A DNA stretch of 64,000 bases from Nitrospirota bacterium (lineage in GTDB: Bacteria > Nitrospirota > JACRHJ01). The stretch's first letter is position 1; each line of letters starts with the position of its first letter. The notes under the pieces are model-generated. The model was not told the origin of the DNA. It searched no databases and saw nothing but the letters and a program-made list of their open reading frames with translations. The DNA lies in the NCBI GenBank assembly GCA_963845245.1, contig CAWJRJ010000018.1, positions 1-64,000 on the forward strand. The letters run 5' to 3'. Positions 3,208-48,187 of this stretch are shown one piece after another. Position numbers and translations under genes: made by a program.

Positions 3208-3367
3208 TAAAGCCTCTCTTGATGTTGGGTATGACTATTATAAGACGAACGTGGCCTTTTTGCGACTACATTTTTAATGCAACGCCGTGGCATTTATTGG
3301 ACAGAAAACAAAACGGAGGCTATTATTAAGATAGTAAATAATGATTTTTTGATAAAAGGGGGAACGC

Positions 3368-6300
3368 ATGGTATTTAAACGGATACTGGCAATACTTTTG
3401 CGCTTCCAGAAATACATCGCCGCCCTGGCGATATTCCTTGCCGTGGTCTCCGTGGCCGCGGTTATCATACTCCCGCCCATACTCAAGGACGTGCTCACAA
3501 AGAAGCTTGGCGAGGAGCTTCACCGCCCGGTCTCGATCCGTCAGATAATCATGAACCCGTTCGCCCTCTCGGTGACCGTCAAGGGCGTTGAGATAAAGGA
3601 GAAGGGCTCGCCCAAGACCTTCGTCTCCTTCGACGAGCTTTATGTCAACCTGGAGAGCGTTTCCATAGTAAAAGGCGGCTTGGTACTCAGGGAGATAAGC
3701 CTCGTCCACCCGTATGTGAACGTCAAGCGAAACTCTGACCTGTCCTATAACTTTTCAGACCTTCTGGAGAAGAAAGGGCCGCCCAAGAAAGAGTCCAAGC
3801 CGTTCAAGTTCTCTTTCAACAACATAAGCATCAAAGACGGCTCTGCGGATTTCGACGACGGCCCCAAGAAGGTGAAACACAAGGTGACCGGCGTGAACCT
3901 GTCGGTCCCGTTCGTCTCCAACCTGGACTACTACACCGACACCTACGTAAAACCTTCATTCTCGGCAATGGTGAACGGCAGACCTGTGGAGCTTAAGGGA
4001 GAGACGAAGATATTCGCTGACTCCCGCGAGACCAAGTTCAACATAAACATAGAGAACTTCAGCATACCCTATTACCTTGCTTACGTGCCGGTAAAGATGG
4101 GTTTCTCGATACCGTCCGGGCTTGTCGACATTGCGACCAGTGTTTCGTACAAACAGTTCACCGGCGGGAAGAAGCCACAGGTCGTATTGTACGGAAACGT
4201 CGCGTTGAAAAATTTTGCGGTCAATATAAACAAAGACGAGCAGGTATTAAAGCTGCCGCGTGTCGATGTATCAATCATTTCCGTACAGCCCTTTGCCAAA
4301 AGAGTAAAACTCCAGTCGGTCGTTGTTAGTTCCCCGAGCCTGATCGTCATCAGGGACGCGTCAGGTAAGCTTAACCTGCTCTCCATGCTCGGAGAAGGCG
4401 CGCCTCCCGGCCAACCCAAACCTGCGGAAAACGCCGGCGATAAACTTTCGCTCGATATTGGCACTGTAAGGCTCAAGGACGGCAACGTCTCGTTCTCAGA
4501 CCACGCTGTGCCCGGATCTTTCAAGGCGGTGCTTCAGGCCATCGACCTTACGGTTGTGAACTTCAATAACGAAAAAGGCTGGAAGACCTCCATAGAGCTG
4601 GCGCTTGGCACCGATGCCGGTGAGACCGTGAAGTTCAGTGGTGGCGTGATACTCGACCCGCTGGCGTCGGAGGGCAAGGTGGACGTGGCCAATATCCCGC
4701 TGAACAGGTACGCGCCGTACTACAGGGACGCCGTGCTGCTCGACGTCAAGGACGGCATGGCTGGGCCTTAGCACCAGTTTCAGCTATGCCAAAGGCGAAA
4801 ATGGGCCGGATGCGCGGCTGACCGACCTTTCCGTCGGCATAAAGTCGCTTGTACTTAAAAAGAGGGGTGCGGGCAGGGAGTTTTTCAAGCTGCCGGAATT
4901 GAAGATCAGCGGGACCTCATGCGACCTCGCAAAAAAAGAGGTTGTACTCGGTGAGGTGACAAGCAGTGGACGGCTTGTTGGAGGCCTCACGCCTGAAGGA
5001 CGGCAGCATTGACCTGGCCTCGCTGGTAAAGCCTTCCGCCAAAGCCCCGGCAAAGGCTCCAGCGAAGATGGAAAAGCCCTGGGATATCACAGTCAAGAGC
5101 GTATCGATCGATTCGTGGGCCTTTAACTTCAAGGACCAGGTCCCCGCTGAGCCGGTAAACGTCTCTATAAGGAAGATAAAGTTTACAGGCGAGAACCTAT
5201 CGACCGTAAAGAACGCGAAGGGTTCTCAGTCGCTTTCACTGGCCATAAACAAGAAAGGGACTCTTTCCGAGAAAGGGACAGTCAGCATTAACCCGCTGAC
5301 GGCCAACCTGAGGGTCTCGGCGAAGGGCGTCGAGATCACGCCGTTCCAGCCTTATTTCACGGACAAGGTCAGGATCGTCGTTGCCGACGGGAGCATCTCG
5401 GCGGGCGGAAGCGTCTCGGTCGCGCAGAATGCGGGCAAGTTCCGGGCCGCATACAAAGGCGATGTGTCGCTCAACAGCCTCAAGACCTTCGACAAAGAAA
5501 ATGCCGGACGAGGTCCTCAGCTGGGACTCGCTCTTTATCAAAGGCATCGATGCAGGCTACAACCCAGGCTATGCGAGGATAAAAGAGGTAGCGCTTACGG
5601 ACTTCGTCTCGAAGCTTGTCATAAACCAGGACGGCTCCCTTAATGTGCAGTCGATAGTCGTTACGGAGGAAAAACCCAAGGAGGCCGAGACAGCGCAGCC
5701 ACAGGGCCAGGCGACTTCAATAAAGCCGGTAAAGGTGGCCGGCGTCCAGCACCGCCCCTGCACAGAAGGAGCCTTTCCCCGTCAGCATAGAGAAGGTTAC
5801 GGTGCAAGGCGGGCATGTAGACTTCACGGACATGAGCGTCAAGCCCAACTATACTGCGGACCTCTCGGCATTGGCGGGCAGGGTGACCGGCTTGTCCTCA
5901 GAGGCCACGAAGATGGCCGACCTGGACTTGAAATGCATGTTCAACAACTATGCGCCATTGGAGATAACCGGCAGGATAAACCCGCTAAGGGAAGACCTCT
6001 TCGTCGATATCAAGGCAAGGTTCACGGACGTCGACTTAAGCCCGCTCACGCCGTACTCCGGCAAGTACGCCGGGTACACCATCAAGAAGGGCAAGCTATC
6101 TCTCGACCTGAAATATCTCATAGACAAAAAGAAGCTGGACTCAAGCAACGTGGTATTCCTGGACCAGTTCACCTTTGGCGAGAGGGTGGAGAGCGACAAG
6201 GCCACCAAGCTGCCTGTCAGGCTTGCAGTGGCGCTCCTCAAGGACAGGAAGGGCGAGATACACCTCGACCTTCCTGTAACGGGGCGGACTGACGACCCGA

Positions 6301-6968
6301 AGTTCCGCATAGGCGGGCTTATCTTGCAGGTGATCCTGAATATCCTGTCGAAGGCCGCTACTTCTCCCTTCGCCCTTCTGGGCGCCATCTTCGGCGGCGG
6401 CGAGGAACTGGGCTACATGGAGTACGATTACGGCAGGGCGGATTTAGGCGAAGCGGGGATAAAGAAGCTCGACACCCTGGCAAAGGCGCTCTCCGACAGG
6501 CCCGCCCTTAAGCTGTCCATCGAGGGGCATGTCGATATAGAGAAAGACAAGGAAGCCCTGAGGCAGATCATCTTCAATAGGAAGGTCAAGGCGCAGAAGC
6601 TTAAGGACATGATAAGCGAAGGGGAGAAGGCGGTGCCTGTAGACGATGTAACAGTATCTCCGGCCGAGTACGAGAAGTATCTGAGGCTCGCATACAAGGC
6701 CGAGAAGTTCCCGAAACCCAGGAACATAATCGGCTTTGCCAAAAAACTGCCCGTCCCAGAGATGGAAAAGCTGATGTTGACCAATACAGAGGTGACGGAC
6801 AGCGACCTGCGTGCGCTTGCGTCGCAACGCGCGGAAAAGGTAAGGGCGTACATAATCGGTACCGGTAAAGTCGAGTCCGAAAGGGTGTTCATGGCAGAGC
6901 CAAAGACGCTTGCCCCGGAGAAAAAGGATAACCTTAAAGACTCCCGCGCCGTGTTCATACTCAGTTAA
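3368..6968 (+). CDS. Large AsmA-like/DUF748-family envelope protein with an OmpA-like C-terminal region; split by about 5 apparent frameshifts (near 4760, 4960, 5500, 5750)
   Basis: N-terminal TM anchor, then repeated beta-rich segments typical of the AsmA/DUF748 family. The C-terminus reads ...[32 protein letters not shown]. Consecutive ORFs in three frames read as one continuous protein. Confidence 0.6.
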
Positions 6969-6987: not shown

Positions 6988-7419
6988 ATGCTTAAAGAGT
7001 TCAAAGAGTTCGCGCTTCACGGCAACGTCATGGATATGGCCATAGGTATCATCATCGGTGCCGCGTTCGGCAAGCTTGTCACCCTATTTGTCAGCGACGT
7101 CCTCATGCCGCCCATAGGTCTGCTCCTGGGAAAAGTGGATTTCTCCAACCTCTACATAACACTTTCCGGTAACGAGTACGAGACGCTTGCCGCCGCAAAG
7201 GCGGCCGGTGCGGTCACTATAAACTACGGCATCTTCCTGAACGCCGTGATAGATTTTACCATCGTCGCTTTTACTGTATTCCTGCTGGTGCGCTATATAA
7301 ACCGGCTGAAGAGGCCGGAGCCGGCGCCTCAAGCACCGGAGACGAAGGAATGCCGCTTCTGCTTTTCTTCGGTGCCTGCAAAGGCCTCCCGATGCCCGCA
7401 CTGCACTTCCGAAATATAA
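6988..7419 (+). CDS. mscL: Large-conductance mechanosensitive channel MscL with an unusual C-terminal CxxC-x11-CxxC tail
   Basis: The MscL N-terminus ([30 protein letters not shown]...[12 protein letters not shown]) is preceded by SD AAGGAAGGG. The protein ends ...[24 protein letters not shown]. Confidence 0.85.
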
Positions 7420-7439
7420 AAAAACATCGGAGACACGTC

Positions 7440-8843
7440 ATGGAACTGAACGCCAAGACAAAAATATCCACGATACTTGCCGCATATCCGTTCATAAAAG
7501 ACTACCTTGCAGCCATAAACCCGAGCTTCAAGGCGCTCGACAACCCGGTGATGATGAACACGCTGGGCCGCATGGCGACGCTCAGCCAGGTTGCGCTGAT
7601 GGGCGGAGTCGAGCTCGACGTGCTCATTGCCGGTATTGCGGATGAGATTAAAACGAAGACGGGGGAGGAAACAGTTACGGAATCAGATATTGTGGTGCCC
7701 GAACGGCGCCAGGAGATACTGAAGGGTATAATAAGGGACCTTCACAAGGGCGTCGATATAGACATACTGAAGAAGCGGTTTCTCAAACTTATCAAGGACG
7801 TTTCTCCCGCCGAGATCGCATCCATGGAGCAGAAGCTTATGGATGAGGGAATGCCTGAGAGCGAGGTAAAGAGGCTCTGCTCGGTGCATGTGGAGGTCTT
7901 CAGGGAGTCTCTGGAGAAGACGAAGACTATACCAGGCCTGCCTTCCGGCCACCCTGTTCATACGCTGATGCTTGAGAACAGGCACGCGGAGGGTATCCTT
8001 GAAGAGCTGGGCGCTGCAAAGGGGAACAAGGACTTGGCCGCAGTCCTTGACAGGCTGTCCGAGATAGACAAACACTACCTCAGGAAGGAACACCAGCTAT
8101 TCCCCGTCCTCGAGGCGAAAGGGATATCGGGGCCTTCGAAGGTGATGTGGTCGTTGCACGACGATATAAGGTACTTCCTGAAGGATATAAAGGCGACGGC
8201 CAAAACGGCGATGCCGACCGACAACGAGCTGAAGACGCTTGCGTTCATGATAAACGACATGATCTACAAGGAGGAGCATATCCTCTTCCCCATGGCGCTT
8301 GAGACGCTTTCGGACGACGACTGGGCAAGGGTGAAAAAGGGCGAGGAGGAGATAGGGTTCGCATGGCTTGCGTCCGCCGAACCCTTGAAGCCCTCGGGAG
8401 GGGCGCCGCTTCCGCCGCTTCCGGCGGACAGGGTAGGCAGCCTGAACCTGGATACCGGCCAGGTGACGCCCGAGCAGGTCAATCTTATGCTCACACACCT
8501 GCCCGTGGACGTCTCTTTCGTGAACGAGAACGACGAGGTGATATATTACTCGCAGACAAAGGAGAGGATATTCCCGAGGAGCCCCGGCATAATAGGGCGC
8601 AAGGTCCAGAACTGCCACCCGCCCAAGAGCGTGCACGTCGTGGAGGCCATACTGGACGCCTTCAAGAAGGGCGAGAGGGACGTCGCCGAGTTCTGGCTCC
8701 AGATGAAGGGCCGGTTCATCCATATCAGGTATTTCGCCGTCCGGGACGAAGCAGGGACGTACAGAGGCACACTTGAAGTCAGCCAGGACGTGACGGAGAT
8801 ACGGGCCCTGAGCGGCGCCAGAAGATTGCTGGAATGGGATTAG
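7440..8843 (+). CDS. DUF1858/hemerythrin-like/DUF438 protein with a C-terminal PAS domain
   Basis: N-terminal DUF1858-like segment (ISTILAAYPFIKDYLAAINPSF), a central His/Glu-rich hemerythrin-like region, and a C-terminal PAS-like fold (VNENDEVIYYSQTKERIFPRSPGIIGRKVQNCHP...). Confidence 0.6.
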   Translation: MELNAKTKISTILAAYPFIKDYLAAINPSFKALDNPVMMNTLGRMATLSQVALMGGVELDVLIAGIADEIKTKTGEETVTESDIVVPERRQEILKGIIRDLHKGVDIDILKKRFLKLIKDVSPAEIASMEQKLMDEGMPESEVKRLCSVHVEVFRESLEKTKTIPGLPSGHPVHTLMLENRHAEGILEELGAAKGNKDLAAVLDRLSEIDKHYLRKEHQLFPVLEAKGISGPSKVMWSLHDDIRYFLKDIKATAKTAMPTDNELKTLAFMINDMIYKEEHILFPMALETLSDDDWARVKKGEEEIGFAWLASAEPLKPSGGAPLPPLPADRVGSLNLDTGQVTPEQVNLMLTHLPVDVSFVNENDEVIYYSQTKERIFPRSPGIIGRKVQNCHPPKSVHVVEAILDAFKKGERDVAEFWLQMKGRFIHIRYFAVRDEAGTYRGTLEVSQDVTEIRALSGARRLLEWD

Positions 8844-8861
8844 ATTCACCCAAGAAAAAAT

Positions 8862-8893
8862 CTTGACCGGGACTTATATAAAGTATAATCTTG
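8862..8893 (+). promoter_or_regulatory. Sigma70-like promoter candidate (TTGACC-15 nt-TATAAT)
   Basis: TTGACCgggacttatataaagTATAAT in the intergenic region upstream of the flotillin-like gene. Confidence 0.3.
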
Positions 8894-8904
8894 GTGCTTA
8901 TATT

Positions 8905-8960
8905 TTATGAGCACCTCGTAATGCGGCCCACCTCTGCAAACGGGGTGGGCTTTTTTATTA
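8905..8960 (+). ncRNA. Two-hairpin element ending in an intrinsic-terminator-like structure (leader or small-RNA candidate)
   Basis: GGTGCTtatattttatgAGCACC, then GCCCACCtctgcaaacGGGGTGGGC followed by TTTTTTATT. It lies 20 nt before the SD/ATG of the next gene. Confidence 0.3.
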
Positions 8961-8978
8961 ATCTTGGGGGAGGTACCT

Positions 8979-11072
8979 ATGGACGGCCTTATAGGGTTTT
9001 ATGCAGTTTATCTTTATGTTTTGGCAGTTGCTGTAATTATCTTCCTGATCTATAAATCCATAGTCATAGTAGGAGGCACGGAACTCGCTGTTCTGGAGAG
9101 GAAATATTTTGGAAGAAAGATGCCTCAGGGAAGGGTAATCGCCATGGGCGACGAGGTCGGCGTGCAGGCCGGTACCCTCGGGCCGGGCATGCATTTCCTC
9201 ATCCCGTTCCTCTATACCGCCAGGAAGCACCCTTTCACCAGTATAGGAGAGGACGAGATAGGCCTGATAGAGTCGATAGACGGGAATCCCGTGCCTCCGG
9301 GCAAGATATTCGCCAAGGTAGTGGAAGGCCACAACTCCTTCCAGGACGGGGAGGCGTTTCTTGCCAACAGCGGTGAGAAAGGCCCTCAAATACAGATACT
9401 GCCTCCGGGCTCATACAGGATAAACCCGGTCCTCTTTAACGTCATAATTGACGAGTCGGTGATAATAGACAAAGGCAAGGTAGGGCTGGTGACATCCATG
9501 GACGGCAAGCCCATCCCTTCGGGAAGGCTTCTGGCCAGCCATCTTGACGGCCACGCCAACTTCGAGGACGGGCAGGCCTTCCTGAACAACGGAGGACAGA
9601 AAGGCCCGCAGATAGACATACTCCTTCCGGGTACGTACAGGATAAACAAGTCGTTATTCAGGGTGGAGATAGTGGAGGCGACTGTTATCCCGGCGAACAA
9701 GGTCGGGCTTGTCACCGCGCTCGACGGTGCGGTTCTGCCGGAAGGCGAGTACGTCTCAACCTCTGTGACCGGCCACAACGACTACCAGAACGCATCTATG
9801 TTCCTCGACGCGGGTGGCCAGCGCGGCCCGCAGTTCGACGTCCTGCGCCCGGGCACGTACTACATAAACCCGATGATGTTCAAGGTGGAGCTGGACGACG
9901 TCGCCGTTATCGAGAGGGGCCAGGTCGGTGTTGTAGTGTCAAACGTCGGGCGTGAACCGTCGTCGGTCAGGGCGGCAGTGGAGGAGAAGGGCGAGACTGA
10001 GAAAGTGGCCGATGCCGCCGCAGCCAACATCGACGGGAGGCTGGACAAGGGGCTTGAAAGGTACGTCGTAACCAAGGGCTTCAGGGGCATACAGCAGGAG
10101 GTGGTCGGGCCGGGCAGGTATTACCTTAACAGGCGCGCATACATCGCCTACATCATAGACACCACCAATATAACGATAGATTGGGAGAATTCGAAAGAAA
10201 CCCGGTTCGACACCCTGAAGGTAATCTCGAAGGATGGCTTCCCAATCGATGTTTCTGTAAAGGTGGTGGTAAGGATAAGGCCCGATCAGGCGCCGTACAT
10301 GGTGGCAAAGATCGGCTCGATAGACAACCTCATCCTACATGTTATCCACCCGATGATCGATTCCAGTTTCAGGAACCAGGCGTCGTCCACCTCGGCCATG
10401 AATTTCATGCAGGACCGCCAGGAGGAGCAGAAGAAGGCCGAGGACAGGACGAAGATGGAACTCGACAAATACCACGTCGAATGCGTCTCGGTCCTGATAT
10501 GTCAGATAAACCTGCCGCAGGAGCTGATGGATACACAGACCAAGAAGATTATCGCGGAGCAGCAGCGCGCCATGTTCGAAGCCGAACAGCAGGCCGAGCA
10601 GACGAGGATCGCCACGGAGAAGACCCGAGCGGAGGCCAACCAGCAGTCCGCGCTCGTGGCCGCGGAGATCGGCGTGAAGGTCGCCGAGCAGAACAAGCAG
10701 CAGGCGATAAAATTTGCGGAAGGCGAGGGTGAGAGCCTCAGGCTGAAGGCGCAGGGCGAGGCAGCCGGCATAAAGGCGAAGGGCGATGCCGAGGCCTCAA
10801 GGATACTAGCGATAGGCAAGTCCACGGCCGAGGCATACGAGCTTCAGAACAAGGCCATAGGCCAGCAGGGCGTTACCGCAATAGAGATAGCCAAACAGAT
10901 AGCATCCGGCAAAGTCAAGATAACCCCGGACCTCCTCGTCCAGGGAGGCGACAACATGGGCGGGCTGATGTCGGCGTTCATGTCCCAACTTATAACGGGC
11001 GGTGTGTCGGCTCCGGTCAAAAAGCCCGCGCCCGCTGTCGTGCCGGGAGTAGAAAGCCCCGCCGTCAATTAA
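8979..11072 (+). CDS. Flotillin-like SPFH/band-7 membrane protein with three inserted tandem repeats of about 65 aa
   Basis: N-terminal TM, then the start of an SPFH domain, then 3 repeats sharing VG(L/V)V...DG...P.G...GH..(F/Y).(D/N)..(A/S)(F/M)L..GG.(K/R)GPQ...(I/V)L.PGTY.IN...F.V, then a canonical SPFH core. The tail is flotillin-type and Ala/Glu/Gln-rich (AEQQRAMFEAEQQAEQTRIATEKTRAEANQQ). Confidence 0.7.
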   Translation: MDGLIGFYAVYLYVLAVAVIIFLIYKSIVIVGGTELAVLERKYFGRKMPQGRVIAMGDEVGVQAGTLGPGMHFLIPFLYTARKHPFTSIGEDEIGLIESIDGNPVPPGKIFAKVVEGHNSFQDGEAFLANSGEKGPQIQILPPGSYRINPVLFNVIIDESVIIDKGKVGLVTSMDGKPIPSGRLLASHLDGHANFEDGQAFLNNGGQKGPQIDILLPGTYRINKSLFRVEIVEATVIPANKVGLVTALDGAVLPEGEYVSTSVTGHNDYQNASMFLDAGGQRGPQFDVLRPGTYYINPMMFKVELDDVAVIERGQVGVVVSNVGREPSSVRAAVEEKGETEKVADAAAANIDGRLDKGLERYVVTKGFRGIQQEVVGPGRYYLNRRAYIAYIIDTTNITIDWENSKETRFDTLKVISKDGFPIDVSVKVVVRIRPDQAPYMVAKIGSIDNLILHVIHPMIDSSFRNQASSTSAMNFMQDRQEEQKKAEDRTKMELDKYHVECVSVLICQINLPQELMDTQTKKIIAEQQRAMFEAEQQAEQTRIATEKTRAEANQQSALVAAEIGVKVAEQNKQQAIKFAEGEGESLRLKAQGEAAGIKAKGDAEASRILAIGKSTAEAYELQNKAIGQQGVTAIEIAKQIASGKVKITPDLLVQGGDNMGGLMSAFMSQLITGGVSAPVKKPAPAVVPGVESPAVN

Positions 11073-11589: not shown

Positions 11590-11782
11590 GTGATTAAAGG
11601 TTCGCGCAACTGCCTTTAGAAACCTGCATTCCTTTCAAAGCCAATACCTGAATCAATAAAATATCAAATAATAATGAGTTTTGTTCCGGTGCCGTTTCCA
11701 GGCAGTGGTCAAGGCTCAGTTATCTGTTGACAAACAAGGCATTATCCAATATCGTATCTTCATATTACAATAGAAGGTACCC

Positions 11783-12467
11783 ATGCCCGACTTATCCGTT
11801 TCCGAAAAACCGACCATCCTGATAATCGAAGATTCAATCGACCTGGTCGAGCTATTGAAGCGCCGCTTTGAGTCTGAACATAACCTTTATTACACCCAGG
11901 ACGGCAGCGAGGGCATAAGGCTGTCCAAGGAGCTCAAGCCGGACATAATCCTGCTGGATGTAAACCTGCCGCGCGTTAACGGATTCGATGTATTGAAGGA
12001 GATACGGGTCGCGGACTCGGCGCGGAAGATAGTGGTGCTGATGATAACCGGCCTTTCGGACCCGGACAACATAGTTAAGGCGCTCAGCCTGGGGGCCGAC
12101 GACTATATCATCAAGCCGTTCAACCTGATGGAGTTGTCCGCGCGCATAAAGTCCCACCTTACTATAAAACATCTCCAGAGACAGATTGTAGGCGTGGAGA
12201 GGCTGAATATCCTCCGGGAGGTGGCAGTCAGCTTCAACCACGAAATAAACAACCCGCTCATGTCCATCTCAACTTTTGCATCTTTCCTTAAAAGAGAACT
12301 CGAAGGTTCAAGCGATGAGGCGAAGGAGAGCGTCGAGGGAATACTGGAGGAAGTGGAGCAGGATCGCTGACATAGTAAAGAAGCTTTCCGCGGCGACAAG
12401 GGCCGCCTCTATTGAATATGGCCCCGGAATCAACATGATCGACTTCGAGCACTTGACGGATGATTGA
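11783..12467 (+). CDS. Response-regulator receiver fused to a HisKA (DHp) domain without an ATPase domain; apparent frameshift near 12360
   Basis: The REC domain (ILIIEDS...DIILLDVNLP...GADDYIIKPF) is followed by the H-box SFNHEINNPLMSISTFASFL. The ORF ends at 12467 with no HATPase_c region. Confidence 0.55.
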
Positions 12468-15149
12468 GAAACTGAAATATCCCGGCCGCATACTTATAGC
12501 GGAAGACGAAGACTCTTTAAGAGAGGCACTTGTAGTATTCCTGAAGTCCAGGGGATATGTCACAGCCGAGGCTGCAGACGGTATCACCGCCTTTGAGATG
12601 GCAGGCCTCTCCAGCTATGACCTCCTCATCACTGACCTGAACATGCCGGGGATGTCCGGTGAAGAACTCTTGGACAAGATGGACGAACTTGAATTTGAAC
12701 GGCGTCCTGCGGTAGTGGTGATGACGGGACATAGCACTCTGGACTCCGCGATCAAAGGCATTAATGCCGGGATTAGCGCCTATATCAGGAAGCCGCTTAA
12801 CCTTGTCGAGATAGAAACTTCGATAAAGACGGCCATCGAGAGGCGGAGGCTGGAGAAGGAACTCAGGGGCTATTACAGGGATCTCGACCGCAAGGTGGAG
12901 GAACGCACGCGGGAGCTCTCCCTGATAAACAAGTTCTCGGCCCTGATAAACAGCTCTTTCTCCCTTGAGAAAATACTCGAAGATGCCGTCGAAGACCTTG
13001 TAAAGTCAATGGAAGCCGATGCTGCATGGATATACCTCTCTGAAGGCAAGCCTCCGCTTTACAGGTTGAAGGCGAGCAGGGGTCTTTCAAAAAGTTTCAT
13101 CGGGGCTGCATCATCGATAGACCCAAAGGCCTTTGCCTCCGTTTCCGGCAGGATGGACGGCCCGGCTTCGATGCTTTGCAACGGCCCGCTTCCTCCCGGT
13201 GCCCCTATTTCCGAAGCAGTGCAAGCGGCGGGTTTCACTTCGGCCGTGCATGCCTCCATCCAGTCCGGCAGGCTCCGCATCGGAAGCATGGGAGTGGCGT
13301 CGAAGACCGGTAAACAATTCCAGGAATCCCACCTGCAGCTCATAGCATCCTTCGGAAACCACATCGGCATCGCGATAGAGAAAATAAGGCTTTACCAGAA
13401 AGAGAAGGCAATATCCAAGGACCTTGAGAAGAAGGTCAACCAGCTCCTTGTCATGAACTGGATGGGAAACAGGGCGAGGGTGTCAAAGGGTCTTGAAGAG
13501 ACCGGGAAGATGCTCGTGTCGTCGATAGCCGAAGCGCTCGGCTTTGACAGGGTCTGTCTCTGGGTATTCGACAAGGATGGGCGCACGCTTTACCTCAAGG
13601 CATGCCACGGTTTGGATGCGAGTTTGTATCGCGACTCATGCCGCGTGGACAGTTCTAAAATAACCTCTTTCAGCCTGGACAGGGGAGAGGCTGTGCTGGT
13701 GACAAGCTCGTTCTGTTCCTTCTCGGACGCAAAGGAGATCTTTGGGAGCATCAGGGAGACTGTCGTCGCGCCCCTTGTCGTGCGTAGCGACAAAGGGGGC
13801 GGAACTCAACTGCTGGGAGCATTTCAACTGCGGGCAGAGTTCCTGCAGCGCATACATGAACAGCGGACTCGCCTGCTGGACTCTTACAGAAAGCTGTATG
13901 AAGACGTCCGAAAGGATGAACCTCCTTGACAAGATGGAGGTCTGCAAAAAGTGCGATGTGTACCAGACGAATACGAGCGGCAAGGGGATCGGGCTGATAT
14001 GCGCAGACAACAGCATCGGTGGCAAAGAGATAACCGGCGATGACGTAAAAGTACTGAACGTATTTGCAAACTCTGCCGCGGCCATAATAGAAAACATGAT
14101 GCTGATGGAGAAGCTCCTTGATGACGAGCACTTCATCGACGGCATGATAACCAACATGTCATCCGGCCTGCTTGTGACGGACATTGACGGAAGGGTCAGG
14201 ATCCTGAACAATGCGGGCGCAGAGATATTGAGGACCGAAAGGGAGTCGCTTGAGGGGCAGTTGCTGGCGGACGTCTACCCGGAGGCCGAGGCAATGCTGA
14301 ACATAGTCGGCTCAAAACTCGGCCGCGAAATGGATATTGATGACTCCGGACGGCATGGTGCCTGTCGGTTTTACCAATTCATACCTTGTGGAAAAGGACG
14401 GGACTGACGGCGGCGTCATAGTCGTATTCAAGGACTTGAGCGATATAAGAAAACTTCACGAACAGCTCAGGGAAAGGGAACACTTCTCGGCTATCGGCAA
14501 GGTGGCCGCGGGCGTCGCCCACGAGATACGCAACCCGCTGTTCGGGATAACCTCGGTAGCCCAGATACTCGGGAGGGAGATAAAGGACGATACGCCGCAG
14601 AAGGCGCTTATCGACGCCATGCTCTCAGAGACTTCCAGGCTCAACACCCTTGTAGAGGACATGCTGCTCTACGGCCGTTCAACGAAACTGTCGCCTCAAC
14701 CGGTTGACCTCAACGAACTGATTGAGGGCGTTGTTCGCTTCCACCAGGGCGGTATAACCGAGAAGGGCTTGAAGATACTGAATAATTTTGACAAGGAGCT
14801 GCCCCAGCTAATGCTGGACCAGGGACAGATGAAACAGGTCTTCCTTAACCTTCTTGTCAACGCGGTCGATGCGTCCGTAACGGGCGGCGAAATAATAGTG
14901 AGGACAGGCGTCAAGGGAGAGTCCGCAGTTATAGAGATCGCCGACAACGGGGTGGGTATCCCCGTAGACGACGTCCCTAAGGTGTTCGACCTGTTTTATA
15001 CCACCAAGGAAAAGGGCACCGGGCTCGGGCTCGCCATATGCAGAAAGATTGTCGAGGACCACGGCGGTACCGTTACCATTTCGAGCATGCCCGGGAAGGG
15101 CACATCGATCCGGATAAGACCTACCGTTACAGGCGGCCAGGGTCAGCGG
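12460..15149 (+). CDS. Hybrid sensor histidine kinase: REC-GAF-GAF(with Cys-rich insert)-PAS-HisKA-HATPase; frameshifts near 13797 and 14340; no in-frame stop before the downstream activator
   Basis: N-terminal REC (RILIAEDEDS...DLLITDLNMPGMSG) and two GAF-like regions. The second GAF contains CWEHFNCGQSSCSAYMNSGLACWTLTESCMKTSERMNLLDKMEVCKKCDVYQ. A PAS domain follows, then HisKA (AGVAHEIRNPLFGI) and HATPase (DNGVGIP...GTGLGLAICRKIVEDHGG). Confidence 0.7.
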
Positions 15150-16498
15150 TTGAACAGGACGCTGCTTATCATAGACGACGAAAAGTCTGTCCGCCAGTCT
15201 CTCCGGTATATGTTCAAGAACAAGGGCTACGATATCCATGAGGCCGGCAATGCGGCCGAAGGGGTCGCGGCCGCAAAAGCCGTCCAGCCTGACCTCGCCA
15301 TACTTGACTACAGGCTTCCCGACAAGACAGGCCTCGACGCGCTGGCCGAGTATAAAGGACGCCGCCCCCGACTGCCTTGTCATCATGCTGACCGCTTACG
15401 GGAGCATCCCGGACGCGGTTGTAGCGATGAAAAAAGGCGCCTTCGACTACCTGACCAAACCCGTAGACATCGACATGCTTGAGATAGCCGTGGAAAGGGC
15501 CGCCGGGGTCAGGCTTCTAAAACAGGAAAACGACAACCTGAAAAGCCTGAGCAGGCATGGCCCCGGAAGGGATCATCGGCGAATCGATGGAGGTCCACAA
15601 GCTGCTGCTCATAATAGGGATACTGGCCGAGAACAAGGACACCACCGTCCTCATCGAAGGCGAGTCCGGCACCGGCAAGGAACTGGTCGCAAAGAACATC
15701 CACAATATGAGCGCGCGCAGGGGAAGCCCTTTCGTGGACATCAACTGCGCGTCCCTTTCCGAGAACCTCCTGGAGTCCGAGCTGTTCGGGCACGAAAAAG
15801 GCTCGTTCACGGATGCAAAAGAGGCGAAGAAGGGGCTGGTCGAGATAGCGAACGGCGGCACGCTTTTCCTTGATGAGATAGGCGAGCTTTCGCCTTCCCT
15901 CCAGCCGAAGCTTCTTGAGGGTGCTTGAGACAAAGACGTTCCGCCGGGTAGGGGGGGTCAAGGATATAAAGGTCGACGTCAGGTTCGTGGCTGCCACGAA
16001 CCGCGACCTCGCTGAAGCGGTGGCTGCGAAGCAGTTCAGGGAGGACCTGTACTACCGTCTGCGCGTCATGCCCATCACGATACCCCCGCTGCGCGAAAGG
16101 GGAAAGGATGTACTGGTGCTTGCAAGGCATTTCGTGTCGCTTTTCTCCCGCGGCCTCAAGAAAGATGATCGAGGGGATCTCGCCGGAGTGTGAACCGTTG
16201 CTCCTTTCATATGGCTGGCCGGGCAACATCAGGGAGTTGAAGAACGTCATGGAACGTGCCGTGATCCTTGCCTCCGGCCCGTATATAATGCCTGAACACC
16301 TTGCCCGTGAGCTTACCGACCTCGCGTCTTCCGGCCCGAAGAGCAGGACTGCCGTCCCAAGCCTTGATAGAGATGGAAGCAAAACACATAACAGCGGTAC
16401 TCACAAGCGCCGGCAATAACCACTCTGAGGCCGCAAGGGCGCTAGGCATAAGCCGCACGACCCTCCTGGCAAAGATCAAAAAATTCCGCCTCGACTGA
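15150..16498 (+). CDS. Sigma54-dependent transcriptional activator (NtrC family: REC-AAA+-Fis HTH); about 4 apparent frameshifts; a TTG start is assumed
   Basis: REC ([14 protein letters not shown]...[14 protein letters not shown]), then the AAA+ sigma54-interaction domain ([34 protein letters not shown]), then a C-terminal HTH ([22 protein letters not shown]). It is in the same frame as the upstream kinase, with no stop between them. Confidence 0.7.
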
Positions 16499-16608
16499 CC
16501 CGTTCAATGTAGTGTTTCTGAACAGCCTGCCTGTCCAATTTTTGTACACACAGACACACCGATAATGATCTAAGTATGCATATTGTTGATATATATGTAT
16601 TTTATTTG

Positions 16609-19817: not shown

Positions 19818-22364
19818 ATGTTCAGAAATCTCAAGATAGGCATACGGCTGGCGATGGCTTTCGGCGTTGTTTTGTTGCTCCTGGCGCTGGTGTCCTGGGA
19901 GGGCCTGCACAGCATGGGCATCATGGACACTGCTGCCATGCACATAGTAAAGAAAAATTACGCCAGGGGAGTGGTTCTCGAACATGCAAATGAGAACCTG
20001 AACGAAATGTACCAGTCTCTTTCGGTTATCATGTCAAGCCGCGACAAGGGCGAGCAGCTAAAAAAGGTCAAGGACCTTGAAACGTCCAGGAAAAACTTTA
20101 ATGACGCGATGGACATTTACGAGAAGACCCAGGACCATCAAGAAGGCCTCGATATGCTCGCAAAGTTTAAAGCGGTTTTAAGTGAATCAATAAAGCCCAT
20201 GGACGAAGTGATAAAACTGTCCCTTGCCAACAAGCCTGAAGATGCAAGGCTTCTTTATCTGAATAAAGTCGAGCCGCAGCAGCACGAAGTACGCAATGTG
20301 TTCGACCCGATGGTGGTATTTGAAGAGCAGAGGATAGACTTCCGCTACAAGCAGACGGTAGACGAATACAGAAGCAGTATCAAGATGATGCTGTTGGTCG
20401 GCGGGATAGCCATAGTCCTTGTAGTTATAATGAGCTTCTTCCTGACCAGGGGTATAACCAAACCGCTCGAAGCTGCGCTCAAGGTGGCCAACAAGGTGTC
20501 TGACGGCGACCTCACCGCCTCGATTGCGGTAAGGTCAAAGGACGAGGTCGGGCAGCTGGGCGATGCCATCAACCGTATGGTGGCGGGACTAAAGGAGATG
20601 GTCGGCACCGTCAACCAGAGCGCTGCCCAGGTGGCTGCCGCCGCCGACCAGGTCAACGCAAGCTCCCACCAGATACAGAAGGGCGCTCAGACTCAGGCGA
20701 GCGCGGCTGACGAGACGTCTTCTAGCATGGAAGAGATGGCGGCCTCCATACAGATGGTCGCCCAGAACGCCGGCGACCTCGCCTCGAACGTGGACGAGAC
20801 CTCGGCTTCGATAAACCAGATGGTCGCATCCATCGAGCAGGTCGCCAGGAACTCCGGCGCAATGGCCTCGTCCGTATCCGAGACCTCCGCGACTGTCGAG
20901 CAGATGGCCGCGTCGATAGACCAGGTTGCAAACGATACGGAAAACCTTTCGGCATCCGTGCAGGAGACATCCGCCACCATCGACCAGATGATGGCATCAA
21001 TCGAACAGGTCGCCAGAAACTCAGACATGCTCTCCGGTACCGTGGCCGAGACGTCCTCGACCGTAGAGGAGATGGCCGCGTCTATCAAACAGGTGGCGGG
21101 CAACGTAGCCGAAGCCGGCCGTATATCCCAGAAGGCAGCCGAGGATGCGGTCGCGGGCGGCGAGGCTGTCGAGCTTACCATCGAGGGCATAAACCGCATA
21201 GCCGATACCATGAAGGTGACCTCGGAAGTGATAGGCAGCCTTGGTAGACGCTCTGAAGAGATAGGCAAGATCATAGGCGTGATTGAGGATATAGCAGACC
21301 AGACCAACCTCCTCGCGCTGAACGCGGCGATAGAGGCTGCCAGGGCTGGTGATGCGGGGCGCGGCTTTGCCGTGGTCGCCGATGAGGTGCGGAAACTGGC
21401 TGAGAGGTCTGTCGTAGCCACCAAGGAGATTGGTGAGGTGATAGAGCAGGTGCAGCTTGAGACCTCGAAAGCCGTTAAAACAGCCGAGGTGGGCGCTGCC
21501 GAAACGCTGGAAGGCAAGAAGCTGGCGGACAAGGCTGGGGCGTCCCTGAAGCGTATCCTCGACAGCGTTGGGGCCACGAACCAGATAATGGCGGAGATAA
21601 ACGATGCGGCCGCCGAGCAGTCATCCGCCGCAAACATGGTGCTCAAGTCCGTGGAGAACATGAACCAGGTCACCGACCAGGTTATAACCGCAGTCAAAGA
21701 GCAGGCGATGGGCTCGAACCAGATAAGGAAGGCCGTAGAGACTATGAACCGCACCACCCAGCAGGTAGCAGGCGCCATGAAGGAGCAGGCTATGGGCGGA
21801 AAGCAGATAAGGGTCGCGGTCGAGGACATGAACAGGGTGACGAACGAGGTGAACATAGCCGCCAAGGAACAGGCGCAGGGCACCGTGCAGATAATGAAGG
21901 CGGTCGAGAATATGAACTCGATGACCCAGCAGGTCGCGAACGCCACCTCTGAGCAGAAGCGCGGCGGAGAACTTGTAGTCAAGGCCGTCGAGAACATCTC
22001 GGACATAGCCCGCGAGAACCTCGCTGCCGTGAAGCAGATGACCGCCGCCTCTGAGAACATCACCTTCCAGGCCGAGTCGCTCCAGCGCGCCATAAGCATG
22101 TTCAAGGTGAGTGACTTGAGCTCGGTCCAGGCCTGCTGGGATATCCTGAACTGCGACATGGCAAACCGGATGAAATGCCCGGCCTACAAGAGCCCCGAGA
22201 AGAGGTGCTGGCTGATAGAGGGCACATGGTGCAAGGGCGTCTTGCAGGGCGACGCGAGGAGCAAGCTGGCGAACTGCATGCACTGCAATGCGTTCAAGGT
22301 CATGCAGGGTGTGAGCTCCCTGCCTGCGGCGAACGTCCGCTCGATAGGCAGCGACAGGTCTTAA
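19818..22364 (+). CDS. Methyl-accepting chemotaxis protein with an extended signalling domain and a C-terminal 7-Cys module
   Basis: TM1, a periplasmic 4-helix-bundle-like region, TM2, and HAMP. The MA domain is very long, with tandem 21-aa repeats ([21 protein letters not shown] x4; AxKEQAxGxxQIxKAVExMN x4) and the [14 protein letters not shown] core. The C-terminus reads [54 protein letters not shown]. Confidence 0.9.
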
Positions 22365-45921: not shown

Positions 45922-47211
45922 CTATTTCAGGCTCTTTATGTATAAAATAATCGACTGCAGCTCTTCCTCGTTCACCGTCCCCTCGTAAGAGGGCATCACG
46001 GGGCCGAACCCCTTTACCACCTTTGCGCCCGGCTCGTATATGGACTCTCTTATGTACGCATCGTCCGCGGTCACGGTCTTTCCGTCGGAAAGTGTCACCA
46101 CACTACCGTACAGGCCCTTGAACGTCGGGCCAACCTTTATGCTTCCGTCTATGGAATGGCAGCCGATGCAGCCCTTGCCCTCGAACGCGGCCTTCCCCTT
46201 CTGGACGGTCGGCTGGATGGCCTGTTTTGCTGGTGCGGCAGCCGTCGATGGTGCCCCGCCCCTGGTGCTCAGTGTCTGCAGATATGCGATTATCGCCGTG
46301 ATGTCGTCGTCCTTCAGGATGCCCTTGAATGTGGGCATCAGGTTCCTGAACCCAGCCACTATCTTCGCGCCAGGGTCGAGTATAGATTCGTGTATGTAAT
46401 CCGCGTCGGCCGTCACAGTCTTTCCGTCGGCGAGCCTGACAGTGCTTCCGAAGAGGTCCTTGAAGCTGGGTCCCACCTTTATCGTCCCGTCGGTGGAATG
46501 GCAGGCGAGGCAACCGGACTGCTCGACCAGGTTCTTGCCCTTCTGGGCCAGTGGCATCGATTTTTCCGCTTCTTCAACCTGCTTTGCCGCCCATTCCTGG
46601 TACTCGTGCGGCTCCATCACGTAAAGAGTAGCCCGCATCTGTGAATGGCCTACCCCGCAGTACTGCGTGCAATAAATCGTATAAGTTCCGACCCGCTCCG
46701 GTTTCAGCCACAAGTAGGTATAACGTCCGGGCAGTATATCCATCTTTTCGCGCAGTTCCGGCACGAAGAAGGCGTGTATAACGTCCTCGGAGGTCATGGT
46801 GAGCTTTACCGCCTGACCGGCAGGTATACGCAGGTCGTTTACCGTCTCCCTGCCGTCGGGGTACGTGAACTTGAACAGCCACTGGCGCGCCGTAACATGT
46901 ATCTCTTCGGCGTCCGGCATCGGTGTGCGCATATCGTCCCAAACCTTGTATCCGTAAATGAAGATGGACATGACAAGGATGGTGGGTATCGCCACCCATA
47001 CGCCTTCAAGGACCTTGTTGCCCGTTATATACGGCGTCTCGGAATCTTCCTCACCTTTTTTCCTCCTGTACCTGAAGGCGAAGTAGATGAGGGCGCCCTG
47101 GGTTACTATGAAGAAAAAAAGCGCGATCCCGGTTATGAATATATAGACCGAGTCCACCTCGGAGGCTATCTTGGATGCCGCGCCCAATGGACCGTAAGTA
47201 TCAGGCATCAT
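45922..47211 (-). CDS. coxB: Cytochrome c oxidase subunit II fused to two c-type cytochrome domains (caa3-type)
   Basis: CuA site (H...CTQYCGVGHSQM) and two CxxCH motifs (CLACHSTDG, CIGCHSIDG). Confidence 0.85.
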   Translation of the reverse strand: MMPDTYGPLGAASKIASEVDSVYIFITGIALFFFIVTQGALIYFAFRYRRKKGEEDSETPYITGNKVLEGVWVAIPTILVMSIFIYGYKVWDDMRTPMPDAEEIHVTARQWLFKFTYPDGRETVNDLRIPAGQAVKLTMTSEDVIHAFFVPELREKMDILPGRYTYLWLKPERVGTYTIYCTQYCGVGHSQMRATLYVMEPHEYQEWAAKQVEEAEKSMPLAQKGKNLVEQSGCLACHSTDGTIKVGPSFKDLFGSTVRLADGKTVTADADYIHESILDPGAKIVAGFRNLMPTFKGILKDDDITAIIAYLQTLSTRGGAPSTAAAPAKQAIQPTVQKGKAAFEGKGCIGCHSIDGSIKVGPTFKGLYGSVVTLSDGKTVTADDAYIRESIYEPGAKVVKGFGPVMPSYEGTVNEEELQSIILYIKSLK

Positions 47212-48068: not shown

Positions 48069-48187
48069 ATCGCTAAATTATAACATATAAGTTTATAGTC
48101 TGAAGGAGATTTATTAAAAACTGGGTCCAGGCCACCGTCCGATATTGAGCCGTTGACTCGTAAACCTAAAAGACATATAATTTTCGG

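What the first reader, a model, noticed from the sequence alone, without database searches (positions are those of the whole stretch)
13795..13966. The same Cys-rich module is inserted into a loop of the second GAF domain of the hybrid histidine kinase
The GAF sequence reads ...SIRETVVAPLVVRSDKG-[52-aa 7-Cys module]-TNTSGKGIGLICADNSIGGKEITGDDVKVLNVFANSAAAIIENMMLMEKL. The GAF beta5/beta6 strands flank the insert, so the module is a discrete cassette placed inside a sensory fold rather than a linear tail. That argues it is an autonomous, transferable sensory unit. A G-run frameshift at about 13797 sits exactly at the 5' junction.
Basis: seen in the sequence. Interest (0 to 1): 0.75.

Follow-up and report, generated by a model that had tools for sequence, protein, structure and literature searches.

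The report
Cysteine-rich sensor domain nested inside GAF
A 61-residue, seven-cysteine "two-CW" domain, which is catalogued but has no known function, sits inside a hairpin of the second GAF domain of a cytoplasmic histidine kinase; intact relatives show the nesting is real and conserved, and the frameshift at its edge is most likely a sequencing error.

Summary
Window 13799-13981 encodes a 61-aa module with seven Cys and two Cys-Trp pairs. It lies between the last two beta-strands of GAF2 in a REC-GAF-GAF-PAS-HisKA-HATPase kinase (12460-15153).

- **GAF test:** removing the module restores an end-to-end Pfam GAF match (35.9 bits, positions 2-133 of 133). With the module in place the match is 24.5 bits and stops at position 96.
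- **Orthologues:** an 85%-identical metagenomic orthologue (L084) reads through both junctions in one 896-aa ORF. Two orthologues at about 40% identity (L085, L086) do the same.
- **Selection:** dN/dS between the window and L084 is about 0.09.
- **Frameshift:** the surplus base in the A3G5 tract (13792-13799) is one of eight uncompensated +1 insertions in this operon. An unrelated gene in the window is also split. An assembly error is the likely cause.

The module is a divergent member of NCBIfam NF045718, the "two-CW domain" (33.7 bits, cutoff 35). That family has at least 1137 50%-identity clusters. Its members attach to chemoreceptors, kinases, GGDEF and HD-GYP proteins at either end, inside the protein, or alone. 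I found no structure and no paper.

Nesting in a GAF hairpin recurs in two other groups: Nitrospirota HAMP-GAF kinases, and an HD-GYP protein that uses a different hairpin.

A sensory role through a bound metal or Fe-S cluster is inferred, not shown. I rate this a new variant of a known kind, of moderate interest.

The parts
12460..15153 (+). Cytoplasmic histidine kinase with the domain order REC, GAF1, GAF2 (carrying the two-CW module), PAS, HisKA, HATPase. In the window it is broken by three +1 insertions, in the A3G5 tract 13792-13799, at about 14340 and at about 15118.
   Evidence: Pfam on the frame-corrected protein gives REC 11-122, GAF 168-307, PAS 560-661, HisKA 679-740 and HATPase 786-885. 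The intact 896-aa orthologue is L084 5023-7713. The DNA alignment lists the insertions.
13438..13797 (+). N-terminal part of GAF2, from helix 1 through the penultimate beta-strand ...VVAPLVVRSDKG.
   Evidence: Pfam GAF positions 2-96 of 133 match with the insert present. The match becomes full length once the insert is deleted. The PDB GAF chains 3oov and 4mcw match this flank weakly at N-terminal GAF positions.
13792..13799 (+). A3G5 homopolymer tract holding one surplus base. This frameshift separates the annotated 489-aa fragment from the rest of the gene.
   Evidence: The window reads GACAAAGGGGGCGG and L084 reads GACAAGGGGGTGG. P0001, the 489-aa ORF ending out of frame, and P0158, the 163-aa fragment, are the products called on this contig.
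13799..13981 (+). Nested two-CW domain of 61 aa. Cys1 to Cys7 lie at 13811-13954. The pattern is C-W-x4-C-x4-C-x9-C-W-x5-C-x15-C-x2-C.
   Evidence: NF045718 scores it 33.7 bits, E 3.6e-8, against a cutoff of 35. An independent family profile scores it 61.7 bits, against at most 13.8 for shuffles. All Cys are conserved in L084, L001, L085 and L086. dN/dS against L084 is 0.10.
13982..14116 (+). C-terminal part of GAF2: the last beta-strand KGIGLICADN and the C-terminal helix ...AAAIIENMMLMEKL, which leads into the PAS domain.
   Evidence: It aligns to the last strand and helix of insert-less GAFs. It matches 3oov residues 122-166 and 4mcw residues 128-171. In P0156 the segment after the insert matches Pfam GAF positions 101-133.
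11783..12467 (+). Upstream REC-HisKA protein of about 227 aa with no ATPase domain. It is split by a +1 insertion near 12358 and is the first gene of the conserved three-gene unit.
   Evidence: ORFs and frames are. The L084 orthologue 4347-5030 has Response_reg plus HisKA. The insertion is listed.
15147..16498 (+). NtrC-type sigma-54 activator (REC, AAA+, HTH_8), the likely cognate regulator. It is broken by four +1 insertions at about 15352, 15551, 15914 and 16369. The start coordinate is approximate.
   Evidence: Three-frame reading is. The L084 orthologue 7710-9053 has Response_reg, Sigma54_activat and HTH_8, and its start overlaps the kinase stop. The insertions are listed.
19818..22364 (+). 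Methyl-accepting chemotaxis protein of the adjacent che cluster. It carries a canonical two-CW domain at its C-terminus (Cys1 to Cys7 at 22134-22286).
   Evidence: Pfam gives 4HB_MCP, HAMP and MCPsignal. NF045718 scores the C-terminal module 40.7 bits, above the cutoff of 35. The same pairing of a GAF-nested kinase with an MCP carrying two-CW is seen in L005 and L083.

Best explanation
**Shown.**
- Window 12460-15153 encodes a soluble histidine kinase with the domain order REC, GAF1, GAF2, PAS, HisKA, HATPase.
- A 61-residue two-CW domain is nested in the hairpin between the last two beta-strands of GAF2. It has seven conserved Cys and two Cys-Trp pairs.
- The nested arrangement is one continuous reading frame in orthologues and is under purifying selection.
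- The kinase lies in a conserved three-gene unit: REC-HisKA protein, kinase, NtrC-type sigma-54 activator. This unit sits next to a che cluster whose chemoreceptor ends in a canonical two-CW domain.

**Most likely.** The one-base surplus in the A3G5 tract at the 5' junction is an assembly error, not a biological feature.

**Inferred.**
- The two-CW domain is a cytoplasmic input module that holds a metal centre through its cysteines.
- The metal centre is most likely an Fe-S cluster. The alternative is one or two Zn sites that act as a thiol redox switch.
- A change in that centre (oxidation, loss, or binding of O2 or NO) would move the module's two ends.
- Those ends are welded directly to the last two strands of the GAF sheet. 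The movement would pass through the last strand into the C-terminal GAF helix, then through the PAS domain to the DHp helices, and so set autokinase activity.
- The output would be sigma-54-dependent transcription through the NtrC-type partner.
- The chemoreceptor with the same domain family would feed a related cue into the che pathway.
For: **Nesting.**
- The Pfam GAF match rises from 24.5 bits (positions 2-96 of 133) to 35.9 bits (positions 2-133 of 133) when the module is deleted.
- The alignment against insert-less GAFs shows a clean block gap.
- Both flanks hit solved GAF structures, with about 59 surplus residues between them.

**Reading frame.**
- L084 has an intact 896-aa ORF and is 85.3% identical in DNA over 4843 nt.
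- L085 and L086 are intact at 40-41% identity.
- L001 has one frame across both junctions.

**Constraint.**
- dN/dS is 0.089 for the kinase and 0.10 for the module, with dS 0.77.
- All seven Cys are invariant across the orthologues.

**Assembly error.**
- There are eight uncompensated +1 insertions and no uncompensated deletions relative to L084.
- DUF58 is also split, at 48170-49079.
- A related long contig, L083, is similarly fragmented.

**Family and modularity.**
- NF045718 hits both window copies.
- 1137 representatives score E <= 1e-3, with the domain N-terminal, C-terminal, internal or alone.
- Of 102 members scanned, 44 carry MCPsignal, 30 HAMP, about 20 PAS, 15 HisKA/HATPase, 10 GGDEF, 4 GAF and 3 HD-GYP domains.
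- N-terminal copies with the same CWEHF[NG]C signature occur in other kinases, L087, L089 and L090.

**Recurrent GAF nesting.** It is seen in L003, L005, P0156 and L083 at the same hairpin. It is seen in P0084 at the first hairpin.

**Link to chemotaxis.** A kinase with GAF-nested two-CW co-occurs with an MCP carrying two-CW in the window, L005 and L083.

**Precedent.** A redox-active Fe-S cluster in the GAF domain of a kinase is known from CSK/Hik2 (PMC6949291).
Against: - No evidence here addresses the cofactor or the signal.
- The cysteine spacing matches no classical Fe-S motif.
- The only similarity to a solved metal site is a chance-level hit (E about 1) to the AccD Cys4 zinc ribbon, covering the C-terminal half of the module.
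- AlphaFold2 gave low-confidence models: pLDDT 36 for GAF2 plus insert from a single sequence, and 57 for the module plus flanking strands with 101 sequences. No fold match followed. Neither the geometry nor the closeness of the module's two ends is therefore shown.
- The kinase copy is a divergent family member. It scores 33.7 bits, below the curated cutoff of 35. Cys5 sits one residue early, and the family's G-T and Q-G motifs are lost.
- The indels are denser in this operon than in the neighbouring 2.5-kb chemoreceptor gene, which has none. Recent decay of this operon in this organism is therefore not excluded.
Confidence: 0.55

Rival explanations
1. The kinase operon is a genuine pseudogene array in this organism. 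The junction frameshift and the seven others are real mutations, so the nested module is a relic here even though it functions in relatives.
For: There are eight frameshifts in 4.8 kb. The adjacent 2.5-kb chemoreceptor gene and several other long ORFs are intact. Several insertions are not in homopolymers, for example at 12358 and 14340.
Against: All eight uncompensated indels are +1 insertions and none is a deletion. No nonsense codon was seen in the frame-corrected kinase. dN/dS is 0.089 over a dS of 0.77, so any decay would have to be very recent. An unrelated gene, DUF58, is split in the same way. DUF748 is probably split too, but that was not examined. The contig is a 218-kb assembly, and a comparable long contig, L083, is equally fragmented.
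Confidence: 0.15
2. The two-CW module is a structural or oligomerisation zinc-binding knob. It has no signal-sensing role. It decorates the GAF hairpin to mediate dimer contacts or partner contacts, for example with the chemoreceptor that carries the same domain.
For: Seven Cys in about 50 residues, ending in C-x2-C, is typical of small zinc-stabilised domains. There is a weak resemblance to the AccD zinc ribbon. The domain occurs in tandem and in many positions, as interaction modules do. It co-occurs in a kinase and a chemoreceptor of the same cluster.
Against: The domain is found with signalling output domains in the 102 members scanned, and often where an input domain is expected. This is circumstantial. 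A zinc site can itself be a redox sensor, so the two readings overlap.
Confidence: 0.25
3. The Cys-rich stretch is a separate small ORF, or a programmed-frameshift product, and not part of the GAF polypeptide.
For: In the window it lies in a different frame from the upstream GAF half. The public gene calls split the region into 489-aa and 163-aa products.
Against: Three orthologues encode it in one ORF with both GAF halves, with no start or stop at the junctions. The A3G5 tract is in frame in L084. Eight sites in one operon cannot all be programmed shifts, and most lack slippery sequences.
Confidence: 0.02

Closest known systems
NCBIfam NF045718, 'two-CW domain-containing protein'
   Same: It has the same seven-Cys and two Cys-Trp scaffold. 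The consensus is C-W-[ED]-x3-C-x(4-7)-C-P-A-Y-x6-C-W-L-x2-G-T-x-C-...-Q-G-x4-K-x3-C-x2-C-x-V-F. The window's chemoreceptor copy passes the curated cutoff at 40.7 bits. The kinase copy hits at E 3.6e-8.
   Different: The kinase copy scores 33.7 bits, just under the cutoff of 35. Its Cys5 lies one residue earlier. G-T and Q-G are lost, and P-A-Y is S-A-Y. It is nested inside another domain rather than terminal. I found no function, structure or paper for the family.
GAF domains that carry a redox cofactor in sensor kinases: the CSK/Hik2 [3Fe-4S] GAF (PMC6949291); the haem GAF of DosS/DosT (from memory)
   Same: A GAF domain upstream of the kinase core acts as a cytoplasmic redox or gas input. 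In CSK, a Cys within the GAF contributes to a redox-active Fe-S cluster that switches autokinase activity.
   Different: In those proteins the cofactor sits in the GAF fold itself and uses few cysteines. Here a complete, separately evolving 61-aa Cys-rich domain is spliced into a hairpin. Its cofactor is unknown.
Cytoplasmic C-terminal sensor add-ons of chemoreceptors: the CZB zinc-binding domain of TlpD and the hemerythrin of DcrH (from memory)
   Same: These are small metal-binding domains appended to the cytoplasmic end of MCPs, and also found on GGDEF proteins and kinases. This parallels the window's MCP carrying two-CW and the family's range of partner domains.
   Different: There is no sequence relationship. 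No CZB or hemerythrin Pfam hit was found on the module at E <= 1. The Cys pattern differs. Nesting inside a GAF is not, to my knowledge, described for those domains.
Domain-in-domain sensor architectures, such as dCache (from memory)
   Same: One ligand-binding module is inserted into a loop of another, so both ends of the guest connect to the host fold.
   Different: The host here is a GAF and the guest is a Cys-rich mini-domain. The insertion recurs at two different GAF hairpins in unrelated proteins.

Membership tests
two-CW domain (NCBIfam NF045718) | The score reaches the curated cutoff of 35 bits. | tested here: not met
   The kinase module scores 33.7 bits (E 3.6e-8), just below the cutoff. 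The window's chemoreceptor module scores 40.7 bits. A family profile built here from 145 other members scores the kinase module at 61.7 bits, against at most 13.8 for 2000 shuffles. It is therefore a homologue, but a divergent one.
two-CW domain (NCBIfam NF045718) | Two Cys-Trp dipeptides and seven conserved cysteines in register. | tested here: met
   Both Cys-Trp pairs and all seven Cys are present. Six align exactly to the invariant family columns, and Cys5 is displaced by one residue. The same pattern is seen in the orthologues L084, L001, L085 and L086.
two-CW domain (NCBIfam NF045718) | Conserved non-Cys positions: P-A-Y after Cys3, G-T before Cys5, Q-G, and Lys four residues before Cys6. 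| tested here: inconclusive
   A-Y and the Lys are kept. Pro is replaced by Ser in the window and L084, but is Pro in L001, L085 and L086. G-T and Q-G are absent in this kinase subfamily.
GAF domain (Pfam PF01590) | A full-length profile match above the gathering score for the two flanks taken together. | tested here: met
   With the insert deleted the match is 35.9 bits (cutoff 22.4), profile positions 2-133 of 133. With the insert it is 24.5 bits, positions 2-96 of 133.
GAF domain (Pfam PF01590) | The insert lies in a loop between secondary-structure elements, not within one. | tested here: met
   The alignment with insert-less GAFs places the block in the 1-2 residue turn between the penultimate and last strands. 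No confident 3D model was obtained, pLDDT 36 and 57, so this rests on sequence alignment.
Two-component sensor histidine kinase | A HisKA domain with the phospho-acceptor His, plus a HATPase_c domain. | tested here: met
   HisKA scores 53.1 bits at 679-740 and includes AHEIRNP. HATPase_c scores 97.3 bits at 786-885, on the frame-corrected protein.
Fe-S cluster sensor domains (for example NreB PAS, FNR, CSK GAF) | A bound Fe-S cluster whose state controls the output. | not testable with these tools
   Only cysteine conservation is available. No classical Fe-S spacing was seen. There was no sequence hit to any solved Fe-S protein in PDB profile searches.
Eukaryotic zf-CW and bacterial CZB zinc domains | A profile match to the Pfam models. 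| tested here: not met
   A Pfam scan of the module at E <= 1 returned only a chance hit to Fra10Ac1, and no zf-CW or CZB.

The most novel reading that the evidence does not exclude
The two-CW domain is a previously uncharacterised, widespread cytoplasmic Fe-S or thiol-metal sensor of redox state, O2 or NO. It has been spliced more than once into the distal hairpins of GAF domains. This turns a small-molecule-binding fold into a redox-gated switch. In Nitrospirota-like bacteria the same cue would then drive both a sigma-54 transcriptional circuit, through the nested kinase, and a che pathway, through the chemoreceptor that carries the domain.
Probability: 0.3. Interest if true: 0.7.

Novelty: new variant of a known kind. 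Interest (0 to 1): 0.5.

Why it matters
The two-CW family is large, with at least 1137 clusters at 50% identity. In the members scanned it is attached to signalling output domains. I found no structure, no assigned cofactor and no paper in the library searched, so it is an open target in bacterial signal transduction.

The nested form is useful for experiments. Both ends of the Cys-rich domain are fixed to the GAF sheet that feeds the kinase helices. Any cofactor-dependent change should therefore read out directly as kinase activity.

Intact orthologues such as L084 and L086 give clean sequences for expression. Nesting at two different GAF hairpins in unrelated proteins suggests the domain's two ends lie close together. 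It also suggests that a GAF carrying a two-CW domain is a favoured design.

For annotation, this window shows how assembly indels can hide such an architecture. The public gene calls split the kinase into fragments, and the 489-aa fragment ends in an out-of-frame translation of the module.

Tried and rejected
1. **Word-indexed protein searches.** The kinase segment, the module alignment and the GAF-plus-module alignment returned only 3, 1 and 6 hits. They gave too little for a deep alignment.
2. **AlphaFold2, GAF2 plus insert, single sequence.** Mean pLDDT was 36, which is unusable.
3. **AlphaFold2, module plus flanking strands, 101 sequences.** Mean pLDDT was 57. A Foldseek search of the PDB found nothing below E = 8. 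I make no statement on cysteine geometry or on how close the module's ends are.
4. **PDB sequence and profile searches with the module.** These gave only chance hits: importin-alpha, and AccD at E about 1.
5. **L082, a 514-nt contig from a close relative.** Its alignment stops before the A3G5 tract, so it says nothing about the frameshift.
6. **The window's own genome.** It is not among the GTDB species representatives; the best match is 40% identity. The organism is therefore only inferred to be Nitrospirota-like, from the nearest genomes L003-L005.
7. **Shared origin with the Nitrospirota HAMP-GAF(two-CW) domains.** The flanks are no more similar to L005 (E 0.018) than to an insert-less GAF in L027 (E 7e-4), and module identity is 17-23%. 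Whether the insertions arose once or separately is undecided.
8. **Programmed frameshifting and a separate small ORF.** Both were rejected from the orthologues.
9. **Literature.** Six searches found nothing on this domain. One search turned up the CSK paper used as an analogue.
Full report
**1. What is in the sequence.**

Region 11783-16498 (+) is a row of signalling genes that change reading frame repeatedly. Frame 1 from 12460 reads a receiver domain, a GAF domain, and the first two-thirds of a second GAF, ending ...SIRETVVAPLVVRSDKG at 13797.

From 13799, frame 2 reads AELNCWEHFNCGQSSCSAYMNSGLACWTLTESCMKTSERMNLLDKMEVCKKCDVYQTNTSG. It then continues KGIGLICADNSIGGKEITGDDVKVLNVFANSAAAIIENMMLMEKL and enters a PAS domain.

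By my coordinates the module is 13799-13981 and Cys1 to Cys7 span 13811-13954. The kinase has 14 Cys in 898 residues, and seven of them lie in this 48-residue stretch.

**2. The module is a known but uncharacterised domain.**

NCBIfam NF045718, the "two-CW domain", matches the kinase module at 33.7 bits (E 3.6e-8, cutoff 35). It matches a second copy, at the C-terminus of the chemoreceptor 19818-22364, at 40.7 bits. Pfam has no model for it. The two window copies are 23% identical.

An exhaustive profile search of 1.84 billion cluster representatives found 1137 proteins at E <= 1e-3 and 108 at E <= 1e-10. In the top 150 proteins (161 domain hits), the domain is placed as follows:

| Position | Count |
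|---|---|
| N-terminal | 64 |
| C-terminal | 54 |
| Internal or tandem | 21 |
| Alone | 22 |

Of 102 members scanned against Pfam, the partner domains were:

| Partner domain | Members |
|---|---|
| MCPsignal | 44 |
| HAMP | 30 |
| PAS | about 20 |
| HisKA/HATPase | 15 |
| GGDEF | 10 |
| GAF | 4 |
| HD-GYP | 3 |

The family consensus is C-W-[ED]-x3-C-x(4-7)-C-P-A-Y-x6-C-W-L-x2-G-T-x-C-x5-Q-G-x4-K-x3-C-x2-C-x-V-F.

The kinase copy is divergent. Cys5 lies one residue early, and G-T and Q-G are lost. A profile built only from 145 other members still scores it at 61.7 bits. The best of 2000 shuffles scores 13.8 bits.

There is no solved structure by sequence or profile search. I found no paper on the domain.

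**3. It is nested in a GAF hairpin.**

- With the 61 residues deleted, GAF2 matches Pfam GAF at positions 2-133 of 133 with 35.9 bits. With them present, the match stops at position 96 and scores 24.5 bits.
- I aligned the region with insert-less GAFs: GAF1 of the same protein and two GAFs of the related Acidobacteriota kinase L002. The module appears as a clean block of about 65 columns between the penultimate strand (VVAPLVV) and the last strand (GIGLICAD). The insert-less domains have a one- or two-residue turn there, for example AVPIRV-EG-VTLGVLDL.
- Both flanks also hit solved GAF domains (3oov, 4mcw) at the expected N- and C-terminal positions. About 59 surplus residues lie between them. 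These hits are weak, with E of 0.3-0.4.

**4. The frame is continuous in relatives.**

The metagenome scan returned L084 (Ga0316628_100006008). Its DNA is 85.3% identical to window 11719-16551 over 4843 nt. It has a single 896-aa ORF with the order REC, GAF1, GAF2(two-CW), PAS, HisKA, HATPase. That ORF reads ...VVAPLVVRNDKGVELNCWEHFGCGRSSCSAY...TNTSGKGIGLICADN....

L085 and L086 (40-41% identity) are also uninterrupted and keep all seven Cys. L001 (about 50% identity) has one frame across both junctions.

After frame correction, dN/dS between the window and L084 is 0.089 for the kinase and 0.10 for the module, at dS 0.77. The alternative that the Cys-rich stretch is a separate small ORF is therefore refuted.

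**5. The frameshift.**

At the junction the window reads GACAAAGGGGGCGG and L084 reads GACAAGGGGGTGG. One base is surplus in an A3G5 tract, and it cannot be assigned to the A-run or the G-run.

Relative to L084, the window has eight uncompensated single-base insertions and no uncompensated deletion. They lie at about 12358, 13792-13799, 14340, 15118, 15352, 15551, 15914 and 16369. Several are outside homopolymers.

An unrelated gene, DUF58, is split in the same way at 48170-48733 and 48549-49079. A related long contig, L083, is equally fragmented. A noisy long-read assembly explains this best.

Recent pseudogenisation is not excluded, because the adjacent chemoreceptor gene is intact. The frameshift's position at the module boundary has no significance.

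**6. Context.**

In L084 and L086 the kinase follows a 227- to 247-aa gene, which in L084 is a REC-HisKA protein. It precedes a 447- to 451-aa gene, which in L084 is an NtrC-type sigma-54 activator. In L084 the activator's start overlaps the kinase stop. The C-terminal receiver seen in the window's run-on frame therefore belongs to the next gene.

Downstream lie CheA, CheW, the chemoreceptor with the C-terminal two-CW domain, CheR, HEAT-repeat proteins and CheB.

**7. The nesting recurs.**

Nitrospirota kinases L003 and L005, together with P0155-P0157 and L083, have a HAMP domain followed by a GAF with a two-CW module at the same last hairpin...AAIPIVSHQVKR[C...CRAF]SVMGLLVAGKDE... The first Cys-Trp there has degenerated to C-T or C-R. 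L005 and L083 also carry an MCP with two-CW in the same che cluster.

The flanks of those GAFs are no closer to this kinase's GAF2 than generic GAFs are, and the modules are only 17-23% identical. Common origin is therefore undecided.

In P0084, an HD-GYP protein, the module sits in the first GAF hairpin...AAIALIDEDSLLP[CW...]INTRIAALAGID.... From general GAF topology, recalled from memory, both hairpin turns lie at the same distal edge of the sheet. That is an inference.

**8. Mechanism (inferred).**

Seven invariant Cys in about 50 residues, on cytoplasmic signalling proteins, point to a bound metal centre. An Fe-S cluster is my first choice. The alternative is a zinc or thiol redox switch. 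A chance-level resemblance of the C-terminal half to the AccD Cys4 zinc ribbon is only a lead.

Both ends of the module join the last two GAF strands. The last strand runs into the helix that leads to the PAS domain and the DHp helices. A change in the metal centre could therefore be passed on as a change in autokinase activity, and then to the sigma-54 activator.

The closest experimental precedent I read is the redox-active [3Fe-4S] cluster in the GAF domain of CSK/Hik2, which switches autokinase activity (PMC6949291).

Structure prediction did not help. Mean pLDDT was 36 and 57, and no fold match was found.

**9. Verdict.**

The domain family is already catalogued. What is new is the nested architecture, its conservation under purifying selection, its recurrence at two GAF hairpins, and its pairing with a chemoreceptor that carries the same domain family. 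I rate it a new variant of a known kind, interest 0.5.

Noticed in passing
L001 202-204 (ENA ERZ27248239 k141_1518589): The roughly 50%-identity orthologue has an in-frame TAG directly after the first Cys-Trp (CW*HF). The window, L084, L085 and L086 have GAG (Glu) there. Gene callers therefore split it into a 67-aa and a 420-aa product. It could be a nonsense mutation, an assembly error or recoding; I did not resolve which.
   Followed up: partly
window 11719-16551: All eight uncompensated indels relative to the intact orthologue L084 are +1 insertions, and none is a deletion. Several lie outside homopolymers. This operon is hit far more densely than the adjacent 2.5-kb chemoreceptor gene, which has none.
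   Followed up: partly
window 48170-49079 and 3356-6965: DUF58 is split across two frames: Pfam positions 1-117 in one frame and 115-212 in the other. A DUF748 protein probably runs through three stop-free segments in different frames. Only the last segment, 5733-6965, was scanned, and it matches the C-terminal part of the profile (positions 653-1037 of 1037). Frameshifts are therefore not confined to the kinase operon.
   Followed up: partly
window 19818-22364; L005 8346-9146 (-); L083 17293-18057 (-): A chemoreceptor with a C-terminal two-CW domain sits in the same che cluster as a kinase with a GAF-nested two-CW domain. This is seen in three different genomes, even though the kinases have different architectures.
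   Followed up: partly
P0084 residues 139-348: An HD-GYP protein with two GAF domains carries a two-CW domain in the first hairpin of its first GAF. This is a different insertion point from the kinase's.
   Followed up: partly
P0005, P0006, P0010, P0023, P0032: Some family members carry two tandem two-CW domains, either after an MCP signalling domain or separated by linkers of about 60 aa.
   Followed up: no
window 11783-12467; L084 4347-5030: A conserved REC-HisKA protein of about 227 aa with no ATPase domain precedes the kinase. It may be a phosphotransfer or phosphatase partner.
   Followed up: no
window 7173-8840, 45925-47424 (-), 47211-48077 (-): The window also encodes a protein with DUF1858, DUF438, hemerythrin and PAS_10 domains, a cytochrome oxidase subunit II fused to cytochrome c, and SCO1/SenC. 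This suggests the organism encounters oxygen.
   Followed up: no
L087, L089, L090 (N-termini of 851-883-aa stop-free ORFs): Kinases with PAS, HisKA and HATPase regions (two also end in a receiver, judged from the sequence) start with a two-CW domain that has the same CWEHF[NG]C signature as the nested kinase copy.
   Followed up: no
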